From Tubulanus polymorphus (taxonomy: Eukaryota > Animalia > Nemertea), in assembly GCF_964204645.1 (NCBI RefSeq), contig NC_134032.1:2628175-2692174 (forward strand): a stretch of 64,000 bases of DNA, in the 5' to 3' direction. Position numbers and translations under genes: made by a program. Of the stretch, positions 7,001-63,065 are shown piece after piece (within the stretch, counting starts at the first letter, position 1; each line of letters opens with the position of its first letter). The notes beneath the pieces were generated by a model. That model did not search any database and was not told where the DNA came from. It saw only the letters and a program-made list of their open reading frames with translations.

Positions 7001-10000
7001 ATTTGTCTTGATTTGGTGTCCTTCACAAACCCATCACTCACACCTGCATTTTCATTCAAACAATCTCGAGATCTTGGTAATAACTGTTCTACAAGGTTAA
7101 TGATCATTACATTTTGGCCGTTTTCCACATGTAAATAGTCCGATTATAGTTCGTGTTGACGAGATTGAAAAGAAAGAAATTTCGAAACGCAAATAATCAA
7201 CCTACACAATTTGATTATGCCAAACGAATGCTAAAACATTTTCATAAAAGATCCTACCTTTTTGTAATTATCAACAACCTAATAATTACCTGGTGAAATT
7301 AGCAGGGATGAGGTGCACGATTCTGAATTTTCAAATTTTTCACATTGCCATTTTTTCACATTAAAAAAACAGTTCTTTTCACATTTTTTTCATACGAAAA
7401 GCTAATTTTTTTCGCATTTTTTACACAACATACCAATAGATAATCTTCTTTTTCTACGTGATTTTATGCAAGAGGGAAGTTTCCAGTTACCAGGCGCCTT
7501 TTGAGTCCCGCATAGTTGGGCGGATTTTTACATTTTTACAGTAAAACTTTTAGCACGATTTATCGTCGTCCATCTTCATTTTGCCACAAAATTAAAAGTT
7601 ATGGTTGGTTAGAAAGGTAATTATTTTCTGATGGAGTTATTTCTATTTGCTCGGCTGCAGCGTTCGGACGCGGTTAGAATTAAAAGGAATTTTCACACAA
7701 AAGTTTACTTAGCAGGTTTTTTTCAGATGCGTAGTTTCTACAGACCGGTACTTTTATTAACAATATTGATAACTATAACAAATTGGAAGACACTCGATAT
7801 CGCTGCTTTGCAGCTATATTCGTTCTTCTTATCTTATCATTCTTCGTTCAATCGACAGTGTCAACATGTTATATTTCACAGCATCAATAATCGTACGTAT
7901 TTGTTATAACAATATGTAAAGGTTTCCGTTCGATTGTTATTTCCCTTTACACAGAACTGAATTGCGCATGCGATAGCGGTTGGACGCGAGCATCGCCAGG
8001 CAAATGCTTCAAGTACACTGCGTCGGGCCGGGATGACATTCGCTCACAATTGGCCAAGATCGACAACGCAAACGAAAACGAAGTGGCCAGAAGTAAGTAT
8101 GCCATACATTTTTCGGAGCAATTTTTCGATTTGTTAAATCTTGTTCACTCCCGTCCAGAACCTTTTGAAAAATACGCAATAATTTTGGGTTTTCTGGTTT
8201 TTTTCACCTTTTTTGATGGATGATATAATACATGATTAATTAATGATTTCGTATCTGCTGGTACAGTATTGAGGCTAAAGTGATCGGAGAACGCCGGCCT
8301 TAAAAACCGGCCCAGTTTTTTCTATATCGGTAAACGAACTTTTCTATCACCGCTTTTTTATAGAGCTCATACCGAACTACACGGGCGCGTTTATTGGTTT
8401 TAGGAGACCGTTCAAAATGGTGAGTGTGATGAAATCTTGGACAAGCCACCTTATTTTCACTGAGACGAACAACGTCAGACTATACTTCAACAGGAAAGAA
8501 CACTAACGTCCAATCAAGGGCAATAATTCAATTCATTTCAAAAATATCTTGATCTATACGGTTATATCCATACGGATTTGGACGTACGGAGTAAACAGAT
8601 AGGAAATAAAAATAAAAAACTATACAATTGCAACATATTACCGATTACAGATGAATACACGATATGATAATGGACAGGTGCAACGCAGATTTCCCCGCCA
8701 GATGGCGTGGCGAATACTCGGTATCAGTTAATTAGCAATGAACTTCAAATTAGATTTTTTGGCTACCGAATCCATACATTAGCATATGACCCAGCAAATA
8801 TACTTTGAATTGATTTAAAGTTCAAAAATATGTAGTTTCAATAATATTTGATCGATTTAAGAGAAAAGACCATTCGGTTTTCATTGAAATTTAGACGAAA
8901 TTAAACGCAAATGACCGAGCATAACTACTATGGAGCGAACCTAGTGGACCCTCGCTTGCTACAAGAGCGTTGGTAGTTGGTAGTTATGAAATAAGGATCC
9001 ATAAACGTAAATGGAGTCTGCGGTGCATTTTTAGACATCTGCCATTGAAAATTTTGCAAAACTTTGGTGACCACATTCATAACAGACCATGATAAATTGT
9101 AGGACTGAGACCTGGAAAAAAGGAGCACCCGCAGCAATTCGACCCATCGGCTGTCGTCAACCGTAAAAACGTTTTATTGCAGGCATACTCAAATTGGAAT
9201 TGGGATGAACCTAACAATAGACCTGCGCCTGAAAACTGTGTGGAAATGTTTCCAAATAATGGAAGGTGGAATGACGTCGACTGCGCATACTCGAAACCCG
9301 TGATTGAATATTATTCCTGTAGTTGTCGTGGCGGTTACGAGTTAAGTGATGATAAAAAGAAATGCATCGGTACGTAGTGCACCGTCTTCTTACTCATAAC
9401 TTCTGCAGATATGAACAGATCTGCTTGACACCCCCTCAGACAATCCACTGTCGGTACCCTGCACCCCCTCAGATAGTCTGCTGTCTGTACCCTGCAACCC
9501 GTCAGACAATATGCTCGCTGTACCCTGCAACCCCTCAGATAGTCTACTGTCTGTACCCTGCAACCCCTCAGATAGTTTACTGTCTGTACCTTGCACCCCT
9601 TCAAACAATCTGCTGGCTGTACCCTGCAACCCCTCAGACAATCTGCTGTCTGTACCCTGCAACCCCTCAGACAATCTGCTTTTTGTACCCTGTACCCATT
9701 CAGATAATCTGCTATCTGTACCCTGCAAACCCTAAGACAATCTGCTGTCTGTACCCTGCAACCCCTCAGACAATGTGCTGTCTGTGCCCAATAACCCCTC
9801 AGACAATCTGCTGTTTGTACCCTGTACCCATTCAGATAATCTGCTATCTGTACCCTGCAACCCCTCAGATAATCTGCTATCTGTACCCTGCACCCTGTGT
9901 TGTAAATTGATGTTCGGTTTGCTACTATAGAATTTGATTGTAGTCTAGTTTAGCATTAGTACTGTAGGATTTGTACCTCTTTACTGAACTCCTTCATGCT

Positions 10001-16351: not shown

Positions 16352-17365
16352 TTATCTTTTCGATGCATTACAAATAGTAGTTAAGAGATCTTTTCTAAAC
16401 TGTTCGCTACTAGCCAGATAAATAAAACCATTCAAAACATGATTCGCCCTATATAGTAGAGTTGCACCCACGTGGCCAAAAAGTACAAACCAAGCGTATG
16501 AGCCGAATAGTCTACAATTAGGGACATAATATGTGGTGGTTTCCTCCAACGAGCCTTTCTCCAGAACTAACGTGTCAAATAGACACATCGGGAAAGTAAA
16601 ACACAGGAACGCTAACGCTGTTGTAACGACTAAAGCTGTGATCTTATTCGACGCTCCTTGTTTTTTATAGGATGCAGTACCTTTGGCGACAGGCAGTTTA
16701 GCTGATTTTCGAACTGATGAAATTATTATCCAATTAGCTACGGAGATAACGACAAAAGGAACATAAAGGGATATAGTATTTGTAGTTGCGTAGTAAGCAA
16801 AAAGTACATATTTTTCTACAATTTGACAGTTTGTCCAGATTCTATATTTAATTGACTCAAACTGTGAACACCAGCCGAGATTCTGCACCGTCAATAAAAC
16901 TGCCGTAACGAATAGCAGTTTGCAGCTGCGTTTAATCGTACAGATAGACACTGCTTGTAGGGGTTTAGGCACAGCTTTAGCGCGATCTATAGTCATCAAC
17001 ACTAGAAACCATATAGCGATCTGACTTGGCCCGATCTTGTGGAACTGCTTCAAAACGCATTCGACATCGTTGAACGGGTGTCCGAAGTAGTTCATCAGAT
17101 ATTGAGTTTCAACCGATACAATAGCGTACAGATCGGCGACACCGATGACCAACATGTGGAAATAACTGGTACTAGACGCCGAGCGTTTAAAAGTGCCCAA
17201 AAGTACGATACCAAAGTTAACGCATCCAACAGCGGGAAAAACGAACGCCAAATACCAACGCATGTCTCGACTGATATAGGCCGCGTCGTTAAACAATCTG
17301 CGTAAACGTTTACAAGCTTGCCTACGAGCCAACTTACTGGACATCAGTGAATCCGTTATATTCAT
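16352..17365 (-). CDS. Intronless rhodopsin-like (class A) GPCR, orphan peptide/chemoreceptor type
   Basis: 337-aa ORF with seven hydrophobic segments: TM2 VADL, Cys at top of TM3, MTIDR, TM6 FLCFTFP, TM7 NHVLNGFIY, helix-8 FRKDL. Confidence 0.9.
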   Translation of the reverse strand: MNITDSLMSSKLARRQACKRLRRLFNDAAYISRDMRWYLAFVFPAVGCVNFGIVLLGTFKRSASSTSYFHMLVIGVADLYAIVSVETQYLMNYFGHPFNDVECVLKQFHKIGPSQIAIWFLVLMTIDRAKAVPKPLQAVSICTIKRSCKLLFVTAVLLTVQNLGWCSQFESIKYRIWTNCQIVEKYVLFAYYATTNTISLYVPFVVISVANWIIISSVRKSAKLPVAKGTASYKKQGASNKITALVVTTALAFLCFTFPMCLFDTLVLEKGSLEETTTYYVPNCRLFGSYAWFVLFGHVGATLLYRANHVLNGFIYLASSEQFRKDLLTTICNASKR

Positions 17366-18344
17366 CGTGGTATTGTTGATAAGTGACGCACGTCACAAAA
17401 TCCTCAAATAGCACGGAAGAGTTTAAAACCATGGCGGAAAACCGACACTGCTCCCAGCAAAGATACTAACGATAATGATAATTTCCTTCTTACATAGCAC
17501 TTTGAATATAAAATCATTACAGCGCTTTATACCAAATTGGAAAGCATGTCGATCAGAATGAACTGCCATCTCATAATGTTATTGAACTGAACATGTCTCC
17601 TCGCATATCAGAAAATCAATTCCGATTTACTACAAGGGATATAATAGAAATAATTTGATATTCAGTCTTTTATATTACAATCACAATTTCATTTGCAGGA
17701 GGTATTACTTACATCTAATTGAAAATCAACTCTCACAAACCTCACACAATTTAATTAGATAGGCCTTATAGCAAGCGTTTGTGAATGTGTAAAATATAAA
17801 CGCAACTATATTGAATATCATTATTCTTTGTCCAAGAATTCATCATAAATTGTGAAAGTAAAACTTCTGAACTGGTTGGAAAATATATTCATCAATTATA
17901 TACGGGGACACGCATGTCGAAATATGATCAGCTCATTAGAACCACGTATTTATAATCAAATCCATAAGAGAAACAAGTGTTGTGATTACTTTATAGTACA
18001 GCCCTATCAATGATATTAGTCATAATTAGAAAAATAGATAAAATGCATGTACGAAGATCTAGTTATTGAGATCCAGAGAGAATATCCAGATTAAGCTATG
18101 GCACTGACATGGGACATGCAACCATACGGACCTGATCCGACTGACGAGAGACAACCACAATAAACAACGTGCATTGGAACTAAAGTATACAGAAATCAGT
18201 ATCAGTTATACTAGGAAGAAACATGGTGAAATAGCATCACATTATCCGGTTTGCTCGACTACAGTAGTAGAAATTGGGCTTTTCATACCAGAGGTATGAG
18301 GCATGTTGTAAGTAGGTTTTGGGTAAAAATACTATGTAAAATAT

Positions 18345-22300: not shown

Positions 22301-23364
22301 AGCTCATACAAATTTTAACGAGGCCTTCTTTCATGGATGATAATGCTTAAATGAATGATTTGTATGAATATATGCCCAGTTGCACTGTCAAAGAGCCTCA
22401 TCTGGAAACCATGTCATTCAAATTTGCTCCATTTGTAAAGTAATAGTCTCAGCCTACGGCCTTCCTTTATTGCACACTTGCACACTCACCCTGCCCCCTT
22501 TTTGGTATAATAATGTAACTTTATTGTTTATGTCCGGCATGTGCATTTTGGTTTCGTTCTTTTTGTAAATTTTCCTAAAATGTGCATTCGTGCGCGGTGG
22601 CAAATCATTATGTAATGTATATAATTTCATAAAGGTAATAAACTTATGCTATAAAAAACGAACTGATATATACGGAACTGACTCTGTCAACACTCGTAAA
22701 AATACGTCAATGTTACATAAAAAATCTTTTGATTTCTAGTTCTTCCTTTATGTTCTTTATAAAAACTTTACTGAGATTCAGTATTTTCTTGTTTACTGGA
22801 AGTTTTCTAAGAACTCGCTCTGGTGAGCTTTGAGATCATATTGTAAGCAGGACAGACAATCTTTTATTTGTTACAAGAAAAGTCTACTTTTCTTATCTTT
22901 TTTTAGATTCCGAAATCATAAATCCGAAGCAACGTCACATAGTGACTGGTCGGTCGAGATTTTGTTTAAATCAAAGTATCTATTTGTAGGTGTAGACCTT
23001 GCCGAGACATCACTATCGAGTCCGCGCATGCGCTATGGAAGTTGAAATTGTTTTGAAGGATTCAATACCATTATTTGTTAAAGGGTAACTGACACTTTTT
23101 TTTTATTTCAAAATTCGATAAGTTCTATCGAACTAAGGAAGACTTTGAAATAGTTCTGTTCAAAAATGTGTAGTTTCCGCGAAAATCGTGATTTTGTAAG
23201 ACAACTTTTGACCTCATTTCGTTGTATACATCGCGTTAGAAATCATCGGCAATTTCCGTCGATCTCCGGCGCTGTGACGTCAATAAAGTGAGCACTGAAA
23301 ATTCTCTTCTATGAAATAACGTTGCGTTTTTACTACTCGGCGTGTTTTCACTGCTTTTTCTCAA

Positions 23365-25953
23365 ATGCCAAATCGTTGTGTTTGCTTTGGGTGCGATTAT
23401 TCGGATAGGGGTATATTTCTTTTTCCGAAGAATCCTGTTCTTCGAGAAAAATGGGCTTCTTTTGTAGGTTTAAAGCGATTGAATTGGAGCGGCCCAACGT
23501 CGAATAGCGTCGTGTGTTACCGGCATTTTACCAACGATGATTTCGTTAATAAAATGCAGTATGATGCACAATTTGCAAAGAGGTAAGTTTCATTCAGTCA
23601 TCTTAACATTTATTCGAGACATGGTTTGAGAATAATTATTGTATGGGCTTGAAAATCACTGTTAAAAGGGTCGCATTTTCAAGTCCAATTCAAATCAATA
23701 AAATTTATTTTTTCCACGCGCGGTATCCAATTCATAATTTTTTATGTCAAAATGCCGTTTAACTTTTGTTTGCTAAGCGTGATTGTAAAACCATGCCTTC
23801 TAGGTCAGCTTACATCGTGTGACAATAGAAACATCTTTTCATTGAACTACTACTATAGGCCACAGTGCATTGGCCATCGTACAATAGGCTTTTATTGTCA
23901 TTGTGAGTGCCTTACTTCACTCACTAACTACAATAACAAAATGAATATTTCACGAGCCTTGTGAATTAACGGTTGCCTTTTGCTTGAAATAGATTGTTGC
24001 TGAAACAAGGAGCCGTGCCATCGATCCACACTGTGATAGAAACCCCTGAATCTACATCTCAACCAGAGGATTTCTTCTCGCCACCACGAAAGCCTGGACG
24101 AAAAGTGTTTGAGAAGAGGGAGAGACGGCGAGTCATTGCTGAGACTGAGAGCCAGGTTTTGCATAATCTTCAACCAAATTTGGTTGAAGATTATGCAAAA
24201 CCTGGTGAAGATGACGGCGGGGAAGTGTATGCGGAACCCGGTATCAAATCAGAGTTCGAGGCGACAAGAGAATTTGCTGTGCAGGCTGAACCGGATTGTA
24301 AATCTCGAGGTAGGATTTTCATGATGGTATGGTGTATCATTGTCATTCAGTTTTGAATATATCACTGTAATCATTGAATTTCATGTTATTTAATGATAAT
24401 TTTTTCTAGGGATGCAAACGCTGAAAGAAACTGCACAGGTGAAGACCAAAATTGTGTACCGCATCAAACCTAAGATTATCTACAGAACGCCATTTAAGGC
24501 TCAGCGTTCAGTTGGAATCCAGGAAAATGCATTGAGTGAGTATTCTTTATTCAGTCTATATCGTATTATGGTACGGCTTGTATTATGGGGTTTTTTATGA
24601 TATCATCTATTCTCCCTATCTATTTAATCCTACTACTGTGATTGGTCTGTTTTAGCCCGAAACATTGGTATTCAATGTAAGCGACCTGCTGAAGAACTTA
24701 CAAATACCTCAAAAGCCATTTGTATTGGAGAAGAATCAGATTTAGGGAGTGACAGTGAAGATGATGACTATCATCCAGATTCGGCAGAAGAGTCAGAGAT
24801 GGACAGTGGCTCTGAGGATGATTCTGAAGGCAGAGTTATGTTTGAAGAAATGAGGTTAGTAAAGTATAATATTTTAATCATGAATGAACGTTGTTAAAAG
24901 TAAGTTCAAAAATTCTTTGTGTAGAATTTACATATCACTCACGGAATCAAAAATGAGACGAAATACTAATTTTTCATTTCAAGGTTTAACTAAGAAACTA
25001 GAAATAATGTCAAGGAAAAAGGAATGTGAAGAAATCAAGGATTGGATAAAGTCAATAAAATGTCATTTGTACTGGTGCGCTGCATCATCATCACCCAGGG
25101 ATAAAGAAGGCATCAGTAAAAAATGGTCATCAGCAGTCAAACACATCCAAGACAATCATGAAGACTGCAGCCATGAACCCATAACATCAGAAAAGAAATG
25201 GCTTTATCCAGGTAAGATATTATCTATTGCAACTACTGAATCAGAAATTATATCTAATTTCATGTGATGAAACATTTGATGTACTATTTACAGGATCTTT
25301 GGTTGGTGATTCTATGCAAAAATATCTGACGAATACACGGGTTATAAATAAAGTGAAGATGATGTCACCATACGGCCAGACCAGTAAACTGGAGTGTCTT
25401 CACAGTTTATTCAATCATTTTGCCCCGAAGATGATTCAGTTTTCTTACAATGGAATGACAAGCAGGTAAGCAAAGTATATAACAATTGAGTGATTTCTAT
25501 TTTTTCATACATATGTCCCTGCTAAGACTTATATCAATGTCTTATGTCTTCTCTTAGGTTACAAATAGCTGCCCTACATTTCAATGAGAATAGTGACAGA
25601 ATACAAGGCACAAAGATTGATGGGACAAAAAAATATAGCATTGTCTATCCAAAATACAAGGACACCCACACATTACGAAAACTACTCACTGATGCCACTT
25701 ATGGTGAATATTAAAGTCATTAACTAAACTTATGTAAATAATTCATTACCAAACACATTGTTGGCTAACAGTGTTTTTTATTTCAGAATATGTCGACATT
25801 TGCTGGAACAAGATACTCGAGGACGTGGAAGAAGCAGATAGGCCGAGGAAAATAATCACAGTACCACCAAATCTCACATCAAACAAAGAAAAAATCACCA
25901 AAGAGGAAGCCATCGCAATGCACAGGACAAGATTCAAAAAAACTAATAGATGA
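23365..25953 (+). pseudogene. Kolobok THAP-domain transposase lacking the central catalytic exons
   Basis: Exons 23365-23582 (THAP C2CH: CVCFGC..FP..W..CYRHF), 23993-24309 (AVPSI), 24410-24535, 24656-24854, then ~24984-25211 (HLYWCA), ~25294-25465 (QTSKLECLHS), ~25559-25704 (AALHFNEN), ~25789-25953. Phase-2 donor at 24854 meets a phase-1 acceptor at 24984, and the first catalytic Asp motifs are absent. Confidence 0.85.
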
Positions 25954-26947
25954 TTGAATGGTAAGTCTCTTGACATTTGTATTGAAGGTATAATTTCATT
26001 TAAAATTGTAATACATGCACATGAAAACATGACAATTATATTGATTTTCTTAAAAAATACATTCTTTTTAGGTCTGCGGAAAAAATGATGACCCGAAGTG
26101 ATGATTTAATTCGAAAAATAATGTACGAAGAAATATATTTGAAATTTGGCAGTTCAAAGATACCGAGTACGTTTTATTTCAACATCAGGAATCATGATAT
26201 ATCTTGTATTCGTTTTATAATTCAACCTAAAATATTTTTCATGTCTTTTTCAGGTGATAAAGACAAAATATCTACATTTGCATGGGAAGATTAATGGTGA
26301 AACTACAAGTCTAAGTGAAAGTTGTAGACACCAGTTCACTCAATAAATGATCTGTAGAAAATTGATAGGAAACTGAAAATAAAATTATTGATCTGCTTAA
26401 GCATAACAAAACTGCTCCTTACTTGAACAATTAATTGCGATCAGATGTTTAAATTAGAACTCAATGGATTGAAAGCAAAACGTTTTATACATTATAAATA
26501 TGCAATAAAATTTATATTTTATATCTAAGCGATGTCATTGTTTTATTAAAATATCTGTAAGAAAAGCACAAGTTAAGAAGAATATATAAACATCGTTAGA
26601 ATTTTTAAGTTGAATTCTTCTATTTTAATTCATTATGGTCCATCTGTGACAGTGGTATTATTGAGTTTCAACAGCAGTCTCAATTCATAGGCAGTGCTGC
26701 CATCTTCTAACGATATCATAAACTATTCCGCATTCATTATCCAACTCATTCAACAGTGCCATCTTTCGTGATAAAACTTTCGAACTTTGTTCCAGCGTCA
26801 GCTTTCATATAACTTTTTGTACTGAGATTGAACCTTAGGAAAATTACGACTAATGCGCGTCAGTTGCTCGTAAGTATTTGCTTCTGCGAGCAACGACTGC
26901 CGCTGAAGAACATAATTCAAAGTTAATGTTACATTTTTCTGGGAAGC

Positions 26948-27263
26948 TGTCACGTATAATGTCCTTTTGTAATTATTTCGGTTGAATAATGATATTTTTA
27001 TGGGCAACGCTGTTGCGCTAACGACAAATTAACGGGCTTTGGCAATGTCGTTCGCTAATGAGATGGGTTGGAGAATTGACTATATATACTGGGGTTTTTT
27101 GGACCGTGGGGGAGACCGCTAGAAATTTTTAGATCGTTGAGATCAGTTCGTGAAATAAAAGTAATTTTGAAGACAGGAACTCTGTGTGTTGCGACTCGTT
27201 TATTCTTGGACGTTTGTTAACATTCTATCACTCAAGTGGAATTCAAAGATCCCGATAGTGACA
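26948..27263 (+). mobile_element. Gypsy-type LTR (single copy) followed by a primer-binding site
   Basis: TGTCAC...GTGACA termini, TATA-like ~27082, AATAAA 27154-27159; TGGTGGAGAA at 27266 is complementary to a tRNA-Ala 3' end; gag follows. Confidence 0.85.
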
Positions 27264-27546
27264 AATGGTGGAGAACCTGGCGGGCATTTTACTTGAGTGA
27301 GGTATCGAGCTATTTAACAAAACCAACGGAAACAAAGATAATTCACTGGAACAATACAGGAAGTAGGAACTCGAGAAACGCACGGAAAATGGATTTTGGT
27401 AAATATTGAACAATACTTGTTATTTAATTTTGATTTCGTCGTGTGCGTAGAACAATTTTCTGTGGATAGACCGAATATTTTGCTGTCTCCTCCGGTCTAT
27501 CGTACATTTAATTGACTTAATATTGAAGAACCTAGAAATTATTTGA

Positions 27547-28523
27547 TTGAATTTGTGTATGCCGGTCGAAACGAGGTCTGGAATGGACCGCGCTTTGGCA
27601 GATAGACTAGCTGAAATGACAGCCAAAATTGACGATAAGCCAATGGGCATGACTCGTCTACAACCGCCACAGTTTACCGGTACGGTAAGCGAAGACGCTA
27701 ATATTTGGTGGCGGCAGTTCACCCAATATTCTACTTTCATGGGCTGGACCAATGAAAAGAAACTTAAAGCAGTGGGGCTGTTTTTAGATGGACTTGCTTC
27801 GGCTTGGTATTGGACCGTGGTCGAGGCAAGCAAGTCAAAAGACGCAACCGTTAAGACAACGGCGAATAGTATCTTATCAGATATTGACAACTTTGAAAGG
27901 GAATTCAAAAAGAAATTCGATTCTGGATCAATGAAATGGGTGCGTGAGCAAAGTTTAATGAACAGAAAACAATTACCGGGGGAATCGTTGGACGTCTATC
28001 TTCAAGACATCCAAATACGTTCGGCGGCTCTTGAAAAGAACGATCATGATTTAATGGTCCTATTTATCAATGGCTTGGCGGACAATTTGAGAGCGTTTGT
28101 CGTATCTAGATCACCAACAACTATGGACGAAGCCGAACAATACGCGCGCTTGTATGAATCCGTGTTGGCGCTGCAGGCGAAACCGCCTCCAATTGCCGGC
28201 ATCATATCATCCACTGAGAACCGAAATGAAATTTCGGATCTCAGGGATGAAATCAGGAATTTAAGCCGGGAAGTCTCGAGACTTCAGGTACAGGTCCGGA
28301 GGCAGGATAATAACCTGCCGCCACGAACTTCAGATCTGCTTCCGGATCTGTAGTTTGTGGTAGATGCAATCGAGTTGGGCATCACGAACGTAATTGTTTT
28401 AGGCAGAACGGTAGTTATCGGCCGGATAGACGGTTTAATAATTCTAACAATAATTTCGGTAATCGTTCCAACGATAATCCTAATAGATTCAGGCCGGGAA
28501 ACAACCCCAGGCCCGGATTTTAG
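27547..28523 (+). pseudogene. Ty3/Gypsy gag with CCHC knuckle, 1-bp frameshift
   Basis: PPQFTG, LDGLASAWY, RKQLPGESLDVY, FINGL; after a frame change near 28326, CGRCNRVGHHERNC and an Asn/Arg-rich tail ending in TAG ~28523. No pol follows. Confidence 0.88.
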
Positions 28524-28653
28524 GGGATGATTCCGAGCCAAAACATTCGTTTACAAAAGGTTGCCTAATATATTCATCAGAGATTTTACTGTTTTAATTC
28601 CTGCTTTGTTTCTCGTGTTGTTGTTCCTGTTCTTTGTACGTGAGTCTGTCACG

Positions 28654-29126
28654 ATGTCGTTAATCGTTCATCTTCCACGCGTGAATGGAGAATTCGAGGC
28701 AGGCATAGCAGCCGGCGTCGATCCCCGTCTCGCCGACACTGACAAGCTCCCGATACATAACGCTGGAGATCACCAGGAAGCAAAGTCCATCGCCTGTGCA
28801 TGGCTCTACCACAAGTATCGAGCATCAGCAAGCGATGAGGTACTTGCAGTTTTGATGGGAGGAGTCATAGGTGGTCTGGACCTAGGGCTTTTCTCTAATG
28901 CGGATGGAGACGTGCTTGTGTCCAACCATGCTACTATATCGGCAACCGCACCAGAGCTGGAGACGTTTGTTAAGGATAAAGTTAGCATGGACGCTGTCCG
29001 TAAAGGAGTTACTTTGGCCATAGCTACAAAGGCAACTTGGTGGGCCATGAACCACCACACAGGCCAGGGCCGAGCGCAGGGCTACGCGAGAAAAGTGATG
29101 AGCACCTTTTTTGGAGAATCCAACGT
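28654..29126 (+). other. Endogenous viral element: 3'-truncated ORF resembling a negative-strand RNA virus (qinvirus-like) nucleoprotein
   Basis: ATG at 28654, ~158 stop-free intronless codons, visibly higher GC than the flanks, motif IATKATWWAMNHHTGQG; ends at the right TIR. The family assignment rests on recalled motif similarity, not a search. Confidence 0.65.
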
Positions 29127-29182
29127 AGATGGCAGCACTGCCTATGAATTGAGACTGCTGTTGAAACTCAATAATACCACTG

Positions 29183-30129
29183 TCACACATCAATCGACAC
29201 ATTACGAAATCCTTTATATACATGGTCCTCCTCATAACCGTCCTCAGGGAAATGTGCGCGGATGCACGAAACGACACAAGCAGGCAAAATTCTCCTATTT
29301 TCCTTGCCCAAATATCCCCAACACCACCGAACAAATGATCTGTATGCTACATGTCTTAATTTCGCATTTGCTGGCCCTTCAAAACTTTTCCGTCCGTACT
29401 GCCGTTTAAATTCGGTCCACATCAGCTGCAGGACCCAAGGGTTCAAACAGATCGAAGCGAAAGCTGCTGTGTCCGTCATGCAGGTCTCTTCATTTTGTCC
29501 GGACTCCTCCCAAACCCATTCCAGTCTTCTTTTCACGACATCAATCTCCATACAGCACACACACACTTGCTCCGTCTCTAAGATCTGACAGTGTCCACAT
29601 TGGCACCTAAAAAGATTATCCATAAAAATATTTTTAAGGTATGGATATAGGTATCTACTTGTTGTAAGCCTATGCTGATGCAATGCAGTGCAAGAATAGT
29701 CCAGCAGTGCCAGCACAACGACGTTGAATCGCACTGAGCTTTTGAAACGAACATGATAAGATTCTCTCAACTTCGCCAACAAAGCTCAAAAACCCATAAT
29801 TAAATCTACGGCTTAATGAATCTTAAAATATATATTTTTAAGTTAATTGTTATATGAACATACCACTGATTCAGATTATCCAGCTCCAAACGGTTTATTC
29901 GGCCTTCGTCGTCGTCTCCCTCTGCCTCCGGTCTGGGTCCATCGCCGTTTCGCTTCGGTTCTGCCTCTGGTTCGTATAAATACGGCCCGATCATTAATTC
30001 CTCTTCGTCACTTGTTTCCTGCCATTCAAAATCACTAAGCGATTCATCTGAATTTGATGCCGAAGTGGCATTAAATTCAGATGAATCGCTCCCATTGTCC
30101 GATTCTCTATTCATTTCTATAGACGCCAT
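29183..30129 (-). CDS. KolX: KolX accessory protein of Kolobok (P2X7 C-terminal 'ballast'-like Cys-rich domain)
   Basis: join(30129..29864, 29606..29183), GT-AG phase 2, 229 aa. Acidic N-terminus, WCQCGHC..CVCC.E, RHVAYRSFVRWCWGYLGKENRRILPACVVSCIRAHFP, YKGF. Confidence 0.9.
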
Positions 30130-31384
30130 TATTGAGTCGCTGCCTTTAATGACGTAGTTCTATAAATAGCCCGCAGTACACGTGTTTTTCCGGAACGATG
30201 TAAAAAAACGAGGCGCGCGAAAATCAAAATCATCAAATATCATTATAAATTGAAATTTTTTCCGATCTTTCAAATTGTCAATCTCAATAGTATACTATAA
30301 TGAATCATTTTATTCCAAAAGTAGAAAATTCTTGAAAAAGTGTCAGTTACCCTTTAATTTGTCCCTTGTTCAATGACATGCGCGCAGCGCACGTTATACC
30401 TTAAAATTGGACCGAGTCATTTAAAACTCTGCCAACTTGTAAATTCTACAGGAAGAACACTTTTAGATCGATTGTTATACTGCCATCTTGTTGAAAGCAA
30501 TTTTCGCGAATTTGTACTTTTTGCTCGACGCAAATTATTTTTTTTTGTGCAATAGAATATGAATAAATGAATGAACCGCAAATATTTCAGCTTTTCAACA
30601 TCGATGGTTTTGCGTCACCGTTTCCATCGTTTGCTATTCAGAGGTAACACTTTTCATCGTCGAATATATTTGTATAGGGACAGGGTGGACCTATCCAAGG
30701 TTTTTGATTACTGCTTAGCTGCGGAAGGGCACCTTTGTCATAGAAAATTTTGGGGCTCTGAGAGGCAATCTGAATCAATTTGGGGCATCATATCCCTTGT
30801 CTGCATCCACTAAATATGACATTTTGACATGTTAAAGACAAATCATTGATAAAAAAAGAAGTTTACCCATTTTCGACTGTTCACATTTGTAATTTTAAAA
30901 TCTATTCTACCTGAACTTCAAAAATAAAAGGACACTTCTTATCTTCAATCATGAGTACCGTTCAAGCGGTAGTAGCGGTAGGCTGGATCCGTCACTGAGG
31001 TATTATCCCCGACCCTTGACTCCCATTCAGTCTGTTACTTGACGAATTTTGTTTTGTAATGCTAAGATTTCATATGGGGAAGTACCCGGTGTAGGTTATG
31101 ATTCTTGCGAGAAAAGTGATCGCTGATGACATCTATATCAACTGCTGCTAATAAAGCGAATTCATCCTGTCAAATCAGAATTGATTTTGCTCTTTGCTGG
31201 CCGCGTGTCATTCGATCGAATCAGATTTGCACAGCAGGATAAATTTTACGATTTGTTAAAAACGACGGACAAGAAAATACTGTCCCTGATTTTCTATTAT
31301 TATTACTAGTACGGTATTTCTATTCTATTATTACTAGTATTTCTACTTATGCATACAAATCTATATAGTTCTATCTATTTGATT

Positions 31385-43555: not shown

Positions 43556-46500
43556 ATGCCTAAAAGGAAAAGAAGAGCTGGTAGCTTTCAGCCGAAGAAG
43601 GTAAGACCCTCTTTTCATAGGCAAATGTTAATCTTCTAGTAAGAAGTATGTAGGCCTTTTTTCCGAGTAAAAAATTCATTAAACTGTTCATCACATGTGT
43701 TAGCTGCGCAATATTTTGGTGCCTGATTTTGGTATTTTATCAGAAAAAACCATATCAGTAAATCATAAACCAGTTGCTTAGAGGGTGTGTAACTGACCAG
43801 TGTCGTATCATCCCTGGTTCTTGTTGAGATAATTATAAGCTATTGAATTGAATTGAACTCATTAGAAAATTCTACGAACGTATAGTGAATGAATTTTTTT
43901 TCTATTTTCAGAAGGTGGAGGTGGTTGGAGTTCCCTCAGCCCTAACTGGACAAAACAGAGATGAAAAAAGGATCAATGGAAAAAAATTATGAAAAATCTC
44001 AAGATGAAGACTACAGAAGAGTTGAAAATGAAATCTTAAATGAAAACCTAAAAAACGCTCAAAATGAAAACTTTAACGAAACGCAAAAAGAAAACTCTGA
44101 TAACAATCAAAACAAGAAGTATGAAGTGAAAATCAATGAAAACTTTGAACCAAAAACTAATGAGAACTATGAATTGAATGCAAATGAAAAAGATGAAATG
44201 AAAATGACTGAAAAACATGGAATGAAAATGAATGCAAAATATGAAATGCATATGAATGGAAACTATGATTTGAAAACAAATGAAAAAGATGAAATGAAAA
44301 TGACTGAAAAACATGAAATGAATATTAATGAGATCTATGATCAGACTATGAATCAAAATTGTGGAACTAATTCGAATGAAGATATGACAAAAAACAAAGT
44401 TAAGACAATTGAAGTGAAATCAGTTTTTTGTGACTTCAATCATGACAACTGTGATACGATTATGCATGACAACTATGATAAGACTAAACAAGGCAACTAT
44501 GAAAAGGCTATATATGGAATCTGTGAAAAGATTACACTTGACAACTGTGATAAGATTTAACATGATAACGCTGGTCACAATATACATGAAACCTCATCGA
44601 AAATGAAAGCTGACTCATCTATTCAACCAATTTCGAGTATGATTTCGTGTAGAGATTGTGATGGCAATTTTGGTAACAGTGAGTCATGTTTAAGTGCTGA
44701 GAATATGAGATGTTCATCAATTCATGGAAATTTCCACCAGGGTCATCCAAAATACGGTATTCATTCAGGTAAGCAATGTGTAACAAATGCATTAGCTGCA
44801 ATGATTCATGCATCAAATAAAGCTGTATGCCTCATGATATTGATTCAGTATTGAATATTGGAAATGATTTATACGCAACATTGACTAATATGAATACAAT
44901 AACAAATATGTATTTATTGATCAGTGAGCTACCAACTGCTGTTGAGATTGGAAATTCCATTTATAATGTGACTGTTGGATCCCCTCAAGTTGCTATATCT
45001 GAATTATCTGATGAAATGAGAGCTGGAAATTTTGGAATTATCAGTGAACTACATGAATGTTTGCACAATAATCTGCTTAATTACGACACATGCTTTATAA
45101 CATTTGCTGGAAATACATTTTGTGTTTTAAAACAGGATGACATGTACTGGGTATTTGATTCACATTCGAGAGATGCATCAGGAATGATGCCCGCTGATGG
45201 ACATGCTGTATTAGTAAGGTACTCTTGTGTTAATTGTATTGTCAAACATTGTCAGAATCTTGCAGCTTCAATGAATCAGAGGCAACCAATACAGTATGAA
45301 ATTACAGTGGCTTCTATCAACCATGAAATTGAAACTACTGTAGAGAATAGCATTATCGAAACAACGACTACATACTCTCCAAACTACCAACAAACAAGTA
45401 GTGAAGATGAACTGCCCTATACAAACCCAAAAGTAGATGAATGCGATGTAATTGTTACTAGTGAATCCGTGCAGCATGATGATTTAATTTACAACCCACT
45501 AGAAAAAGGTCAGTGCAAAACATTATGCTCTATTCTAGGTATTCATTGTCGACCCTCAACTCTCGGATATGAATGTATGCCCAAATATGATGGACAACTC
45601 TACTCTCCATGTAATACGCAGAAAATTAAAGGCGATGGAAGCTGTTTTTTTCGGGCAATTTCATATTCAATCTGTGGAACTGAGCAATATCATCGGGCTA
45701 TACTCACCGAAGTTTTAAAGCACATGCGGCAGAATTCCGACAAATTCCAACCACATCTGAGAAATCCACAACTTACTATAAATGAGTATATTGATGAATC
45801 CCGTATGAAATATACAGGTACTTGGGTGACAGAGGTTGAAATTCTTGCAACAGCTGATTTACTGCATGCTGATATATATACATTTGTAGGCAATGGTTGG
45901 TTACGATTCGCTGGTTCTACTTTCAGTGCACCAAATCGTGTGTGTGAATTAAATGGCAACATTTATTTGAAAAATTGCAGAGGTGTACAATATGAAGTTG
46001 TGTCATGTGTGAAACAATCTGAGGAATGTATTTGCTCTTGGTGTGGCAAGCGACGAAATACTGAAAAAACGGATGATAAAAAAGCCCTGAAAAGGCAGTA
46101 TAATTATCAAAGATATCATGAAGATGAAGATTACAAACAGCACAAACAGAAATTAGCATGTATGAAATCAAAAAATGACGAGGCCTATCGTTTAAATCAA
46201 AACCAGCAGAGGCAAATCAGATACAATGATGATGACTCGTCTTATCGTAGAACGAAGATGTCTAGTACTCTTAGAAGATACTATAATGATATCAATTATA
46301 AGCAAAAGGTAAATAAGCGAACATCAGAGAAATACAAAAGTGACGTTGACTTCAGAAATAAAGCTAAGCTTTGTAGTATTCAGAAATACAAAAGTGATGA
46401 GCAACATCGAGCACAACTAAGAACTAACAGCATCGAGAAATATCATAATGATGAACAGCATCAAGCCCAAGTTAAATCTTACAGCATTGCAAAATACCAA

Positions 46501-46937
46501 AATGATGAACAGCATCGACGCCAAGTTAAATCTTACAGCATTGAAAAATACCAAAATGATGAACAGCATCGAGCCCAAATTAAATGTTACAGCATTGAAA
46601 AATACCAAAATGATGAACAGCATCGAGGCCAAGTTAAATCTTACAGCATTGAAAAATACCAAAATGATGAACAGCATCGAGCCCAAGTTAAATCTTACAG
46701 CATTGAAAAATACCAAAATGATGAACAGCATCGAGGCCATGTTAAATCTTACAGCATTGAAAAATACCAAAATGATGAACAGCATCGACGCCAAGTTAAA
46801 TCTTACAGCATTGAAAAATACCAAAATCATGAACAGCATCAAGCCCAAGTTAAATTTAACAGCATTGAAAAAACCGAAATGATGAACAGCATCGAGCCCA
46901 AGTTAAAACATTCAGTGTTGAAAAGTATCAAACCAAC
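43556..46937 (+). pseudogene. N-terminal part of the Helentron polyprotein: basic leader exon, low-complexity repeats, herpes-tegument-type deubiquitinase, OTU protease, 18-aa repeats; disrupted
   Basis: Exon 43556-43600 (MPKRKRR), acceptor at 43912; GNFHQG..GKQCVTNAL and FDSHSRD; KGDGSCFFRAIS..W.TEVEI. Stop at 44558-44560; frameshifts near 43985, 44827 and 46870. Confidence 0.85.
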
Positions 46938-46945
46938 ATGCAACA
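46375..46945 (+). repeat. 54-bp coding tandem repeat (YSIEKYQNDEQHRAQVKS), ~10 copies
   Basis: Direct reading of the near-identical units. Confidence 0.95.
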
Positions 46946-49900
46946 TCGTGATAAAATGAAAAGACTAAGCATCAACAAGTATGCAGGTGATCCTAAAATC
47001 AAGGAAATGGTTGTTGCTTCCACAAGATCACGTCGTGAAAATGAAAAATTGAAAAAGAAAGACATCAACTATGTGATCAGTGAATTTCGACGTGTATCTA
47101 AAGACGGTCCTGAATATGTCTGCTCTGTGTGTCATCGACTCTTGTTCAGAAATCAAGTTAAAGATCTTATTGAAAACAATTACACTACTCATGGACCTAC
47201 ACATGCTGAAATTGCTCAAAAATGTATAACAAATACATATCTACATGTCTGCAATGAAGATTGTCCAACACCATGCACCTTGAAAACTGAACCATCAATT
47301 AAGCAGTGGATTTGTCACAATTGTCATCATAAGTTATTGATGGCTAAGATACCATGTGAGGCTGCTTGCAATAATTTGCAGTTAGATAGAGTTCCAAGAG
47401 AATTATCACATCTGAATCCACTGGAGGAGCATCTTATTGCGATAAACATTCCATTCATTAAGATGATTGCTTTGCCGAGGCAAGGACAGCATGGTTGTCA
47501 TGGGCCTGTTGTATGTGTGCCAAGTGATGTTAAAAAAACTACTACAATATTACCTCGTGATTCATCTGATGATCAAATGATGAAAGTTAAATTGAAACGC
47601 AAACTCACGTACAAGGGTCACTATCAGTATCAGTTTGTTGACCAGAAAAAAATCATGGATGCTCTTACCACTTTAAAATCAATTAACAAACACTATCGTG
47701 ACATTGAACTGAACCAAGACTGGACCAATTGTCTTGAAAAAATTGATGAAGAATCAGAATCTGAAGTGCTCTCAACTGATAAATCGTCGTCCAATATAGA
47801 TGAAAGCTGTGTGAATTCCTTACCTACTGCTAAGAGTGAAGCAGATAAGGAAACAAATGGAACTGATTCACAGGAAGAAACCGAGGCAGAAAATCTACAC
47901 GAAATGTATATGAATTCATGTCTACAACCAATTGATATTGGTCAAGAAATTCTTGATGCACACTTTAATGATATTTTGTGTCCGGCACCAGCTGAAAATA
48001 ACAGCCCAATACAAATATTAACCGACAAAGAAAATGAAGCCAAATCATTCCCCACATTGTTTCCTACTGGAAGATTCACTTATCATGCTGTTCGTGATGA
48101 AAGAATCACTCTCGCACGATATTTACATACCCGATTGATGAACGCTGATCCAAGATTCTCTCGAAATACTGACTTTATTTTCTATTCACAATTTTTGTCA
48201 GAAATTAATCAGGTTGCATCAAATGTATCGATAGCGCTACGAAAAGGAGTGAAAGATAGCACTCGGCAATTTCATGTCGGATTGGATAGTCTAAGAAATC
48301 TCAAAGACGTGAATGATATCTTCAAGTATAATGATGGCTACAAGTTTTTGAAACCAATACGAGGAACACCACCATTCTGGCAGGCTGCTCAAAAAGACTT
48401 ATTGGCTATGGTTCGGCAATTAGGTGTCCCTACATTTTTTGTGTCATTTTCAGCCGCTGAAATGAGATGGAATGAACATTTAGAAGCTATAATGCGAATC
48501 GATGGATGCAATAAACCAGTTAGTGAATTGTCATGGTCTGAGAAATGTGGTATTTTGAGACGCAATCCTGTCACTGCTGCACGCATTTTTGATCACAGAT
48601 TTCATACATTCCTTAATGATGTTATCAAATCCCCAGCGCAACCTATTGGTGAAATTCAAGACTTTTTTTATCGAGTAGAATTCCAGATGAGAGGCAGCCC
48701 ACATGTACATGCACTGATATGGGTAAAAGACGCACCGAAATCAGGAATTGATGACGACGCTAATGTCACCTCGTTTGTAGATCGATATATCACCTGTAAA
48801 TTACCTGATGATTCTGAGGATCCTGAATTACATGAAACTGTAACCAGTGTCCAAATGCACAGCAAAAGACACTCAAAAACATGCCGCAAGAAAGGTACTA
48901 AATGTAGGTTTAATTTCCCAAAGAATCCTTCATTACAAACATTTTTGACTCAAGAAAAATACGAACCCCCACCACCACCAAGTACTGATGAATCGAATAA
49001 TGAAGAACCATTAAATGAACAAATTGAGGCAGCTAGCAATGCAATGAGTCCCGATCAAGCGAAAGAAATATTACAGAAAGTGTGGGAATTGATGAACAAA
49101 GAGGATACTGATTTATCAACTACAGAATCACTGTACAGATCAATTGGAATCACACAAGATATGTTTGAAGAAGCTTATCGTTGTTTATCACGTAAGAGTA
49201 GTGTCGTTTTGAAAAGGGAACCAAATGAATGTTGGGTAAATCAATACAATCCTGCATTATTGAGAGCCTGGCAGGCTAACATGGATATACAGTATGTGAC
49301 TGATGCATTTGCATGCGTAGTATACATAGTATCGTATATCTCAAAGAGTGAACGAGAAATGGGTCTTTTATTAGAACACACAAGAGCGGAGGCTGCAGAT
49401 AATAATCAAAGCGCGAAACAAGCCATGAAATCATTAGGTTCAACTTATCTCCATAATCGTGAGGTGTCAGCTCAAGAAGCAGTGTATCGAGTTTGTAATC
49501 TAAAAATGAAGCAAGGATCTCGAAAAGTTCAGTTTATTCCTACAGGTGACAATATCATTAAATTAAGTAAACCACTGAGCGTATTACAATCAAAAAGCGC
49601 AGATCACGATTTGACTGATGATGATGTATGGATGACTGGCATCGTAGAACGATATCAAAATCGACCTGATGATGAGGAATTTGAACAAATGTGTTTGGCT
49701 CAATTCTGCTCTGAATATAGGATTCTCGCAAAATCTCAAGTGAACAACAGCAGCATAGCATTGAAAAATGAGAGTGGATATATCAGAAAGAGAACCAACA
49801 CAGCCCCGGCAGTTGTCAGGTATGCTAGATTTTCAAAAACAAAACAACCTGAAAAACATTATCAAACAAGTCTACAATTATTTCTGCCATATCGTCAAGA

Positions 49901-61529: not shown

Positions 61530-63065
61530 TTTCCACTTGTGTAATTATTGTGCAGATTTGAATTTCAATGTTGTTTATTAATCATGACTCATGTGTAGGA
61601 GGTTATGGTATATCAGAGTTTCTTATTTGGATGGGTCTTGCAATTTCATAGTGTCATAGTGTCGTCAGTTGGTAATGTCGTTTAATGCTGTCCACATGCG
61701 TAATTATTGTACAGATTTGAATGTCGATGTTGTTCATTCGTCATGACTCATATTTGTAGGAGCTTATAGTTTGTTATGTAACTGGAGTGGTGTGTGGATG
61801 TATAGGTGGTTTTTATTTTATAAGCGTACGTTATGTGGAATGTCCTATGTGGATATAGGGTCAGGGGGTGTTATTAGTGGGGGTGATGTGTTTGTAGTGA
61901 ATATTTCGATTATCAGAGTTTCCTATTTGAATGGGTCTTGTAATTTCATAGTGCGATAATGTCTTAGTTAGTAATAGGTTTATGTAGTTAATTCTGTCCA
62001 CTTGCATAATTATTGTACACATTTCAATTTCGATGTTGTATATGTAGGAGGTTATGGTATGTGCTGTTATTGGCGTGTGGTGTGTATGTTTAAGTGGGTT
62101 ATAATATTTCGTTATGCGAAGTCTCCTATGTCAATATATGTAGGAGAATCAGGCGTGTTATTTAAGGGGGGCGGTTGTGTATGTAGTGAATGTTTTGATT
62201 AGCAGATTCTCCAATGCAGATATATATAGTAGGGTCAGGTGGATATGTTTGTAGGGGTGTTGTGTATTTGGTGTGAATGTTTCAATTAACAGAGTCATAA
62301 TGTCATAGTGTAGTGTGTTAGTGTGTTGGTAATACGTTTGCATAATTATTGTGCACATTGAATTTTGATGTTGTTTATTTATAATGACTGAGATGTGTAG
62401 GATGTTATGGTTTGTGCTGTTATTGGCGTGTTGTGTGTATGATTAAGTGGGTTATAATATTTCGTTCTGTGAACCTCCTATGTTGATATATGTAGGAGGG
62501 TCAGGCAGATTTAGATCTTAGGAAGAGAGTTCAAGTATCCGAATAACCATAGAAGCGATAACATTAATAACCTCATTTTCTAATGAGTAAATACAGTTTA
62601 TAAACTGTATTTACTCATTAGAAAATGAGGTTTTTAATGTTATCGCTTTTATGGTTATTCAGGCAGATTTGTTTATAGGGGAGTTGTGTGCTGGTGCAAA
62701 TGTAGTAAATGTTTCGATTATCAGAGTCTCCTATTTGGATGGGTTTTGTAATGTTATAATATGATAATGTCACAAGTTGGTAATAGGTTTATGTTGTTTA
62801 ATTCTGTCCACTTGTACACATTTGAATTTCGATGTTGTTTGCTTATCATGACACATGTGTAGGAGGTTATGGTACTGGGTTGTGTAAATGTGTATGGGAG
62901 GTTATAATATTTCGTTCTGTAGAGTCTCCTCTGCGAATATATGTCAGAGGGTGACGCGTATTAATGAAGCAGGGTGTTGTGTAGTGGTGTGTATGTAGTG
63001 TATGTTTTGATTTCGATATGTGGAAACATCTATGTGGATGTATATAGGAGGGTCAGGTGTGTTAC
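61530..63065. repeat. Degenerate long-period tandem array
   Basis: ATTATTGT.CA.ATTTGAATTTC.ATGTTGT...TGTAGGAGGTTATGGT recurs near 61543, 61702, 62008, 62343 and 62812. Confidence 0.75.
62513..62658. mobile_element. Palindromic Penelope-like insertion with 12-bp target duplication
   Basis: Fold-back centred on TTTATAAA (~62592); TCAGGCAGATTT at 62501-62512 and 62659-62670; arms match 31446-31512. Confidence 0.7.

What the first reader, a model, noticed from the sequence alone, without database searches (positions are those of the whole stretch)
26641..29191. Integrase-style cassette: perfect inverted TGT...ACA ends packaging a Gypsy LTR-gag joined to a virus-like gene
Seen: a 2543-bp insert with identical 61-bp inverted termini and a 4-bp TSD (CATC), containing 242 bp of unassigned DNA, one LTR, PBS, gag, then a non-retroelement ORF where pol should be. 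It encodes no integrase or transposase. Known: TG...CA ends with 4-bp TSDs are typical of Gypsy integrases and Ginger transposases, and LTR-element reverse transcriptases can copy RNA-virus RNA by template switching. Inference: either a chimeric cDNA capped at both ends by the same LTR end in inverted orientation and integrated in trans, or a non-autonomous Ginger-like vehicle carrying captured cargo. If the same termini flank different cargoes elsewhere, this is an undescribed virus-sequence capture and mobilisation system. Zero mismatches between the TIRs imply a recent event.
Basis: partly seen in the sequence, partly recalled or inferred. Interest (0 to 1): 0.92.

Follow-up and report, generated by a model that had tools for sequence, protein, structure and literature searches.

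The report
Virus gene capped by inverted LTR
An animal chromosome carries, in more than one individual, part of an RNA-virus nucleocapsid gene fused to a Gypsy jumping gene and closed by a flipped copy of that element's own front end, likely a one-off copying error in which a stray retrotransposon DNA strand primed on viral messenger RNA and the product was inserted whole.

Summary
The 2543-bp insert, its identical 61-bp inverted ends and the CATC duplication are real. Raw reads of another study cross the gag/virus, virus/arm and right outer joints, and empty sites exist.

The ends are not transposon TIRs. Reads show one 619-bp multi-copy LTR (26645-27263) preceded in other copies by a polypurine tract. 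The left arm and the '242 unassigned bases' are therefore U3, and the right arm is an inverted copy of the U3 tip. The cargo is the probable leader plus the first ~157 codons of a qinvirus-like nucleocapsid gene, in the sense of gag.

Best explanation (0.68, inferred): a plus strand primed at the polypurine tract switched after 61 nt to viral mRNA, then to Gypsy RNA at the gag/pol border, and integrase inserted the U3-U3-ended DNA into a Kolobok transposon. No second cargo or second flank was seen, but no genome was available and single-copy events elsewhere are not excluded. It lacks the 3' LTR and polypurine tract, so it would be a dead end. It is a new variant of known LTR-mediated virus capture, not a mobilisation system.

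The parts
26641..26644 (+). Left target-site duplication CATC
   Evidence: empty site with one CATC in 34 reads and 2 contigs
26645..27263 (+). Complete 619-bp LTR of a multi-copy Gypsy-type family (TGT...ACA; TATA-like box at 27081, AATAAA at 27154)
   Evidence: flat depth, loose ends before 26645 and behind 27263, purine tract before the start in other copies; motifs
26645..26705 (+). Left 'arm' = first 61 bases (U3 tip) of the LTR, not a separate TIR
27266..27287 (+). Primer-binding-site-like tract starting TGG, two bases behind the LTR; tRNA-Ala-like (recalled, not tested)
   Evidence: sequence; no tRNA gene in the window to compare
27583..28523 (+). gag: capsid part 27583-28353, reading frame broken by a frameshift near 28320-28350, CCHC zinc knuckle 28356-28397 in another frame, stop at 28521-28523
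   Evidence: PF03732 5.2e-06, PF19259 0.0084 below cut-off; frames as they stand
28524..28540 (+). Last 17 Gypsy bases (gag/pol border); other copies of the family continue differently behind 28540
   Evidence: 65 reads of X6 break off behind 28540 with full agreement, same in contigs of X1, X2, X5
28541..28653 (+). 113-nt probable 5' leader of the viral mRNA (inferred from position and depth; no nucleotide homolog)
   Evidence: same low depth as the ORF; leaders of 8 related contigs with a full ORF are 49-229 nt
28654..29126 (+). First ~157 codons of a qinvirus-like small-segment nucleocapsid gene, no stop or frameshift, cut before the conserved GHW motif; not in frame with gag
   Evidence: 176 proteins at E<=0.001, best 2.7e-23; top 7 Foldseek rows; alignment
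29127..29187 (-). Right 'arm' = inverted copy of the LTR's first 61 bases (second U3 end)
29188..29191 (+). Right target-site duplication CATC
23082..30353 (+). Host element: multi-copy Kolobok (Kol0-type) DNA transposon with perfect 19-bp TIRs and TTAA duplications; THAP domain on +, KolX (P2RX7_C) on the minus strand; the insert lands two codons before the KolX stop
   Evidence: definition in PMC9587614

Best explanation
This is a single inherited insertion of Gypsy LTR, PBS-like tract and gag joined to the 5' part of a qin-like virus nucleocapsid gene and ended by an inverted U3 tip, likely made in one faulty round of reverse transcription and likely inserted by the family's integrase acting on two U3 ends. 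Steps: (1, inferred) viral N mRNA was packaged in a Gypsy particle; (2, inferred) a plus strand primed at the polypurine tract left its template after 61 nt and primed on the viral mRNA; (3, inferred) reverse transcriptase copied 586 nt to near the mRNA's 5' end, then switched to Gypsy RNA 17 nt behind the gag stop and went on as if it were a minus strand; (4, inferred from the Ty3 pathway) a normal plus-strand strong-stop DNA supplied the left LTR, so both strands begin with the same U3 tip; (5, shown by the 4-bp duplication and the empty site; enzyme inferred) one integration event put it into a Kolobok copy in the germ line. Having no 3' LTR and no polypurine tract it would not retrotranspose again; it could move only as a passenger of the Kolobok.
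For: LTR limits and the purine tract before 26645 in other copies. The right arm ends exactly at the LTR tip next to the duplication, and the empty site shows both ends at one CATC. The viral gene has the sense of gag and begins with a leader of the usual length (113 nt against 49-229 nt in 8 related contigs), as expected for copying an mRNA towards its 5' end. No purine tract longer than 9 nt and no second LTR lie in the insert. In Ty3 the polypurine tract primes repeatedly, earlier plus strands are displaced, and dead-end plus strands pile up in particles (PMC5371799, passages), which would supply the stray primer. Hybrids of Ty3/gypsy and RNA viruses form without sequence homology in mosquito cells (PMC6797480, passages). 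Raw reads of an independent study cover the gag/virus and virus/arm joints at depth 6.9-11.7 without loose ends at 28541 or 29126, and about 5.6 of depth runs on into the right Kolobok flank.
Against: No step of the synthesis is observed; the sequence shows only the product. Microhomology at the joints cannot be read because the source virus is unknown (nearest proteins 33-40% identical; residue comparison inconclusive). No strong hairpin marks base 61 as a pause site (-5.6 kcal/mol for the first 61 nt). That the 113-nt piece is viral and reaches the mRNA's 5' end is inferred. Activity of this integrase on two U3 ends is not shown. The left outer joint was not isolated in reads. Read support in X6 is thin (9 reads from 5 starts at one place) and X1 may be the sample the window came from.
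Confidence: 0.68

Rival explanations
1. Two separate cDNA molecules were inserted by their U3 ends at one site, leaving a chromosome break. Repair trimmed one molecule back to gag, the other to 61 bp, and joined them with a viral cDNA as filler.
For: It also gives two U3 ends and one 4-bp duplication. Capture of cDNA at breaks is known from yeast (recalled).
Against: It needs three molecules and long, unequal trimming. It does not predict that the viral piece has the sense of gag or starts with an intact-length leader, and the viral cDNA would still need its own primer.
Confidence: 0.13
2. The same particle-borne error in another order: a Gypsy-virus hybrid strand was made first, and its growing top strand, on running out of viral cDNA, jumped onto a displaced plus-strand strong-stop DNA at base 61 and copied it back to the U3 tip.
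For: It gives the identical product and uses the same displaced plus strands (PMC5371799).
Against: It needs an extra, unrecorded primer for the viral cDNA, which the best explanation supplies for free.
Confidence: 0.08
3. An ordinary two-LTR capture (LTR-gag-cargo-PPT-LTR) integrated first, and a later repair event replaced its right part by an inverted copy of the left tip.
For: Two-LTR captures are well documented (PMC5131818, passages).
Against: The inverted copy stops exactly at the LTR tip and the duplication is intact on both sides. No read or contig shows the viral piece continuing into other Gypsy sequence.
Confidence: 0.05
4. A non-autonomous Ginger-like DNA transposon with 61-bp TIRs that carries captured cargo and is moved by a transposase in trans.
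For: TIR length (40-270 bp), TGTNR ends and 4-bp duplication fit the description of Ginger (PMC2836005).
Against: The arm is the tip of a multi-copy LTR: 163 reads continue into the LTR at 95% agreement and a purine tract precedes it in other copies. The target is neither CCGG/CCGT nor RTATAY. Only one version of the viral piece was seen.
Confidence: 0.04
5. Assembly artefact joining host repeats with a contaminating viral sequence.
For: All flanks are repeats. No listed contig spans the whole stretch, and the X1 contig has only 30 letters beyond each inner joint, one short of the tool's bridging rule.
Against: Raw genomic DNA reads of another study cover the viral part and cross three of the four joints. 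The matching duplication and empty site could not be invented by an assembler. An RNA virus would not be in a DNA library.
Confidence: 0.02

Closest known systems
Retrotransposon-virus hybrid cDNA and EVEs: LCMV with mouse IAP (Geuking et al. 2009, seen only through review PMC3205384, passages); Ty3/gypsy with Sindbis virus and other viruses in Aedes (PMC6797480 and bioRxiv 10.1101/127498, passages)
   Same: Viral RNA joined to an LTR retrotransposon in the same orientation, explained by template switching in the particle, then integrated.
   Different: Here a fixed germ-line product keeps both joints, the duplication and an empty site. It has no 3' LTR and ends in an inverted U3 tip, which points to a plus-strand primer. 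The passages read do not describe such ends.
LTR-mediated retroposition of mRNAs (Tan et al. 2016, PMC5131818, passages)
   Same: Cargo replaces part of the element's internal genes; partial mRNA; integrase-type insertion.
   Different: That model has two switches during minus-strand synthesis, keeps a 5' and a 3' LTR in direct orientation and can retrotranspose again. This insert has one LTR, two U3 ends and could not.
Ginger1/Ginger2 DNA transposons (PMC2836005, passages and part 3 of 5 with the Discussion)
   Same: Outward shape: TGTNR ends, TIR of 40-270 bp, 4-bp duplication.
   Different: No transposase, no family, other target; the TIR is a copied LTR tip. The paper calls the route from LTR element to TIR element unclear and suggests two LTRs in opposite orientation from two insertions; this insert reaches that shape in what appears to be one step.
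Qinviridae small-segment putative nucleocapsid (Wenzhou qinvirus-like virus 1, Shahe, Sanxia, Beihai sesarmid crab virus 4, Xinzhou nematode virus 3; family description in PMC10496375, passages)
   Same: Sequence family and predicted fold of the N-terminal ~157 residues.
   Different: Fragment only, 22-31% identical to the named proteins, no close relative (tree unresolved), no polymerase segment to classify it.
Complex insertions by abnormal template switching (Sabot and Schulman 2007, PMC1950507, passages); HIV-1 proviruses with asymmetric LTRs or inversions (PMC9278108, passages)
   Same: Faulty reverse transcripts are still inserted by integrase as one unit.
   Different: Those products, in the passages read, keep ends in direct orientation and carry no foreign RNA.

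Membership tests
Ty3/Gypsy LTR retrotransposon (parent family) | LTR with TG...CA ends, multi-copy | tested here: met
   26645-27263; depth and loose ends
Ty3/Gypsy LTR retrotransposon (parent family) | Polypurine tract before the 3' LTR | tested here: met
   commonest flank before 26645 in 83 reads and an X1 contig, (other copies, not this insert)
Ty3/Gypsy LTR retrotransposon (parent family) | Primer binding site complementary to a host tRNA | tested here: inconclusive
   TGG tract two bases behind the LTR; no tRNA gene in the window; tRNA-Ala likeness is recalled
Ty3/Gypsy LTR retrotransposon (parent family) | Gag with capsid domain and zinc knuckle | tested here: met
Ty3/Gypsy LTR retrotransposon (parent family) | pol with order protease-RT-RNase H-integrase (separates Gypsy from Copia and BEL) | not testable with these tools
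   pol is absent from the insert and no genome is held; the Gypsy label rests on gag and LTR features
Ty3/Gypsy LTR retrotransposon (this copy) | Two LTRs in direct orientation | tested here: not met
   one LTR plus an inverted 61-bp tip
LTR-mediated retrocopy / virus capture | Cargo replaces part of the internal ORFs, same sense | tested here: met
   break at 28540 against other copies; N and gag on one strand
LTR-mediated retrocopy / virus capture | Both 5' and 3' LTR retained | tested here: not met
LTR-mediated retrocopy / virus capture | Microsimilarity at the switch points | tested here: inconclusive
   source virus unknown; residue comparison with 58 relatives uninformative
Ginger DNA transposon | TIR 40-270 bp starting TGTNR, 4-bp duplication | tested here: met
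   against PMC2836005
Ginger DNA transposon | Target preference CCGG/CCGT (Ginger1) or RTATAY (Ginger2) | tested here: not met
   target CATC; one site only, and preferences are not absolute
Ginger DNA transposon | Ends belong to a TIR family with a Gypsy-like transposase or non-autonomous copies sharing both ends | tested here: not met
   arm continues into the ordinary LTR in 163 reads at 95% agreement; no transposase ORF; a single further inverted pair is not excluded
Qinviridae small-segment nucleocapsid | Homology to segment-2 protein | tested here: met
   6 of the top 7 Foldseek rows are named qin-like virus proteins, 1 unnamed, E 6e-5 to 2e-2, next row E 0.79; relatives on 1.2-2.2 kb contigs
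Qinviridae small-segment nucleocapsid | Polymerase segment placing the virus in the family | not testable with these tools
   no polymerase piece was sought or seen; N tree unresolved
Kolobok (Kol0), host element | TTAA duplication, 5'-RR ends, KolX with P2X7 C-terminal likeness | tested here: met
   PMC9587614
Kolobok (Kol0), host element | DDD/E transposase | tested here: inconclusive
   THAP found; three exon-sized pieces gave no Pfam hit

The most novel reading that the evidence does not exclude
Stray plus strands primed at the polypurine tract are a recurrent, overlooked way for Gypsy elements to seize viral and other mRNAs in the germ line. The products have two U3 ends, escape LTR finders, look like TIR transposons, and show a one-step route from an LTR element to the Ginger-shaped architecture whose origin is open; this genome would hold more of them with other cargoes and arm lengths.
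Probability: 0.3. Interest if true: 0.78.

Novelty: new variant of a known kind. Interest (0 to 1): 0.52.

Why it matters
Most fossils of non-retroviral RNA viruses only lie near LTR elements, and the capture step is inferred. Here the whole record survives: both switch points, both integrase ends, the duplication and the empty site. The geometry points to a primer (a displaced plus strand) that differs from the usual minus-strand switch model and gives a simple signature to search for: an LTR tip inverted against a sense-oriented cargo inside one duplication. It also shows how a TGT...ACA, 4-bp-duplication, TIR-bounded unit can arise from an LTR element, a route PMC2836005 calls unclear. It is further germ-line evidence that a qin-like virus infected this animal's cells; PMC10496375 notes that hosts of most qinviruses are uncertain. 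As it stands it is one dead-end insertion, and qin-like nucleocapsid fossils occur in other genomes.

Tried and rejected
Word-based protein searches with the ORF found nothing; Pfam, PDB sequence search and the ESM Atlas were blank for it; VIA against solved structures gave best Z 3.9, no information; the single-sequence model was poor (pLDDT 51). Only the index-free HMMER search and the alignment-based model (pLDDT 81) identified it. The idea that the arm is a viral panhandle end was dropped: it is the LTR tip, and its first 30 bases match no viral contig. A gag-N or pol-N fusion was rejected: three different frames. High identity of arm-encoded residues 161, 162 and 166 to relatives (52, 52 and 48 of 58) is taken as an alignment jump to a motif about 20 residues downstream, not as evidence. 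The higher relative depth of the central 286 nt in X2 and X3 (one sample, identical contig ends) was not read as extra copies; the tool warns that contig depth is no copy number and that records are filtered. The N tree was a quick tree with 38 of 69 inner branches open; 74 of 76 rows were used. No RNA holder listed. Paper searches listed no paper on a virus-retrotransposon chimera with two U3 ends; the library is open-access only, and Maxwell and Curcio 2007, Schacherer 2004 and Lauermann and Boeke 1997 were not held. I recall, unverified, that yeast Ty1 retrosequences include inverted Ty segments, so the geometry may be in print. No supplements were read; those of PMC5131818 and PMC6797480 list junctions and may bear on novelty.
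Full report
Observation. The insert spans 26645-29187. Its first 61 bases and the reverse complement of its last 61 are identical and differ at base 62; CATC stands on both sides. Chance is excluded. It contains gag and a second ORF; apart from these two and gag's antisense frame, no frame exceeds 101 codons, so no integrase or transposase is encoded. It sits in a Kolobok DNA transposon, 23082-30353, with perfect 19-bp TIRs beginning AG, TTAA duplications, a THAP domain and a KolX gene (features as in PMC9587614, passages).

It is not an assembly artefact. No genome is held, so I used public runs. Of 10 runs listed, 5 hold the stretch or part of it, from 2 studies; X6 is a raw genomic library of a third study added by species label. 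X6, X1, X2 and X5 were laid on 26300-29600, and X6, X1, X2 and X3 on 28521-29207, leaving only 20 flanking bases on each side. X6 depth is 6.9-11.7 without a gap from 28521 to 29118, no loose end is listed at 28541 or 29126, and the last bin, pure Kolobok, has 8.35, of which 2.7 comes from other LTR flanks matching a few bases by chance. A 646-base X1 contig matches 28511-29156 without a difference but reaches only 30 bases past each inner joint, one short of the tool's bridging rule; X2 and X3 (one sample) hold 28718-29003. X1 may be the window's own source. X6 differs at one leader base in 9 of 9 reads from 5 starts, so it is another haplotype. The empty site appears as a 2547-base skip with four shared letters in 34 X6 reads and in X1 and X2 contigs; since the Kolobok is multi-copy this does not tell whether the insertion is fixed. 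The left outer joint was not isolated.

The arms are LTR tips. X6 depth is 153-184 in all six bins from 26633 to 27298. 83 reads break off before 26645 (agreement 0.53) and their commonest flank is a purine-rich G-run tract, as expected before a 3' LTR; 69 break off behind 27263 (agreement 0.45). No break at 26947-26948 is among the six X6 rows shown, the smallest of which has 16 reads; 76 rows were not shown. From the other side, 163 reads carrying the arm continue into the ordinary LTR at 95% agreement. Behind 28540, 17 bases after the gag stop, 65 X6 reads and contigs of X1, X2 and X5 continue with one other sequence: the intact family. Relative to the viral part, X6 depth is about 18-fold for the LTR and 6- to 9-fold for gag. 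No single-copy control was laid, so one locus is likely but not shown. gag in the window is broken by a frameshift before its zinc knuckle.

The cargo. Word-based searches, Pfam, PDB and the Atlas were blank. The index-free search found 176 proteins at E<=0.001, 70 at 1e-10, best 2.7e-23 at 40% identity, nearly all aligned over residues 1-160 of proteins that are mostly 360-500 residues when full-length. Nine of ten clusters looked up have a representative on a contig of 1.2-2.2 kb; three viral contigs of 1601-1883 nt carry one such ORF each. A model built on 54 sequences (pLDDT 81) matched seven viral structures with probability 0.99-1.0, six named as qin-like virus proteins, three of them nucleocapsid or nucleoprotein, and one unnamed; the next row had E 0.79. 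Qinviridae are negative-strand viruses with a 1.6-1.9 kb second segment for this protein (PMC10496375, passages). The window holds the first ~157 codons, uninterrupted, cut before a conserved GHW motif, preceded by 113 nt that have the same low depth and the length of a viral leader (49-229 nt in the 8 of 10 loci with a full ORF). No other part of the window matches these proteins. The tree placed it with no starred group.

How it most likely arose. Read 5' to 3', both strands start with the same U3 tip, which is where polypurine-tract priming starts a plus strand. The bottom strand reads: 61 nt of U3, antisense viral mRNA up to its leader, antisense gag, PBS and LTR. That is the path of a plus strand that left its template at base 61, primed on viral mRNA, reached or neared its 5' end and switched to Gypsy RNA. 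A normal strong-stop strand then supplies the left LTR. In Ty3 the tract primes several times, earlier plus strands are displaced and dead-end strands accumulate (PMC5371799, passages); virus-Gypsy hybrids form without homology (PMC6797480, passages). Integrase, supplied by an intact copy, would join both CA ends at a 4-base stagger. Shown: the product, its ends, the duplication, the empty site. Inferred: all synthesis steps and the enzyme. Against: no microhomology can be read, no clear pause structure at base 61, thin read support. Rivals are two-molecule insertion with repair and filler (0.13), the same error in another order (0.08), later rearrangement of an ordinary capture (0.05), a Ginger-like vehicle (0.04) and misassembly (0.02). 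Without a 3' LTR or purine tract the insert would not retrotranspose.

Is it a system? At base 61, agreement of 95% among 163 reads excludes many cargoes but leaves room for about one other single-copy joint; joints at other U3 positions would fall below the rows shown. One version of the viral piece was seen in the four runs. So no system is shown and none is fully excluded.

Comparison. It works like known retrotransposon-mediated capture of viral and host RNA (PMC3205384, PMC5131818, PMC6797480, bioRxiv 10.1101/127498; passages) but fails that model's feature of two direct LTRs. It has the outward shape of a Ginger element (PMC2836005) but is not one; that paper calls the step from LTR element to TIR element unclear. 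Searches listed no description of a virus chimera with two U3 ends, but three key yeast papers were not held and no supplements were read. Earlier AI notes of this scan, looked up after my reading was fixed and not checked here, describe the same two-U3 geometry with a host mRNA in a shark and with Gypsy sequence in a fish, a two-molecule case in an octopus, and three other qin-like fossils. They are leads: they make a recurrent by-product class more plausible and the virus fossil itself more ordinary.

Verdict. Observation partly confirmed, first interpretation partly supported. New variant of a known kind; interest 0.52. The most novel reading left open, a recurrent plus-strand-primed capture route that yields TIR-shaped units, has probability about 0.3 and would deserve 0.78.

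Noticed in passing
window 24152-24205: A perfect 54-bp palindrome without a loop lies inside an open frame of the Kolobok transposase region and reads through; an imperfect 53-bp one lies at 30038-30090 in the KolX region.
   Followed up: no
window 29186-30159, minus strand: The insert lands two codons before the KolX stop, so a KolX transcript that reads on would be antisense to the viral gene and would carry both 61-base arms; expression untested.
   Followed up: partly
window 26948-27263: An internal TGTCAC pairs with the LTR's closing GTGACA like the ends of a shorter 316-bp LTR; diverged contigs share the tip and the 3' part but differ in between. The long LTR may be a composite.
   Followed up: no
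window 62541-62660: Near-perfect hairpin with 60-bp arms and no spacer, inside a strongly G-skewed, repeat-like tract from about 57 kb to the window's end.
   Followed up: no
window 44821-52361: Helitron/Helentron-type ORFs: OTU protease, then Rep, Pif1 helicase and endonuclease in an 1830-codon frame, with a 54-bp coding repeat at 46253-46933.
   Followed up: no
L004 1-1471: The best protein hit (P0001) is itself a broken qin-like nucleocapsid gene in a metagenome contig, next to a frame that resembles a Penelope-type reverse transcriptase (resemblance recalled; no Pfam hit); L010 holds a degraded second copy.
   Followed up: partly
P0009, P0156, P0169: Relatives of the viral protein are annotated as hypothetical genes on long contigs of an ant and two beetles, so qin-like nucleocapsid fossils occur in insect genomes.
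   Followed up: no
window 27716: All 72 X6 reads and the contigs of X1, X2 and X5 differ from the window at this gag base: a private change of the window's copy or an assembly error.
   Followed up: no
window 16352-17392, minus strand: Single-exon rhodopsin-family receptor gene (7tm_1); 33-bp tandem array at 9330-9956.
   Followed up: no
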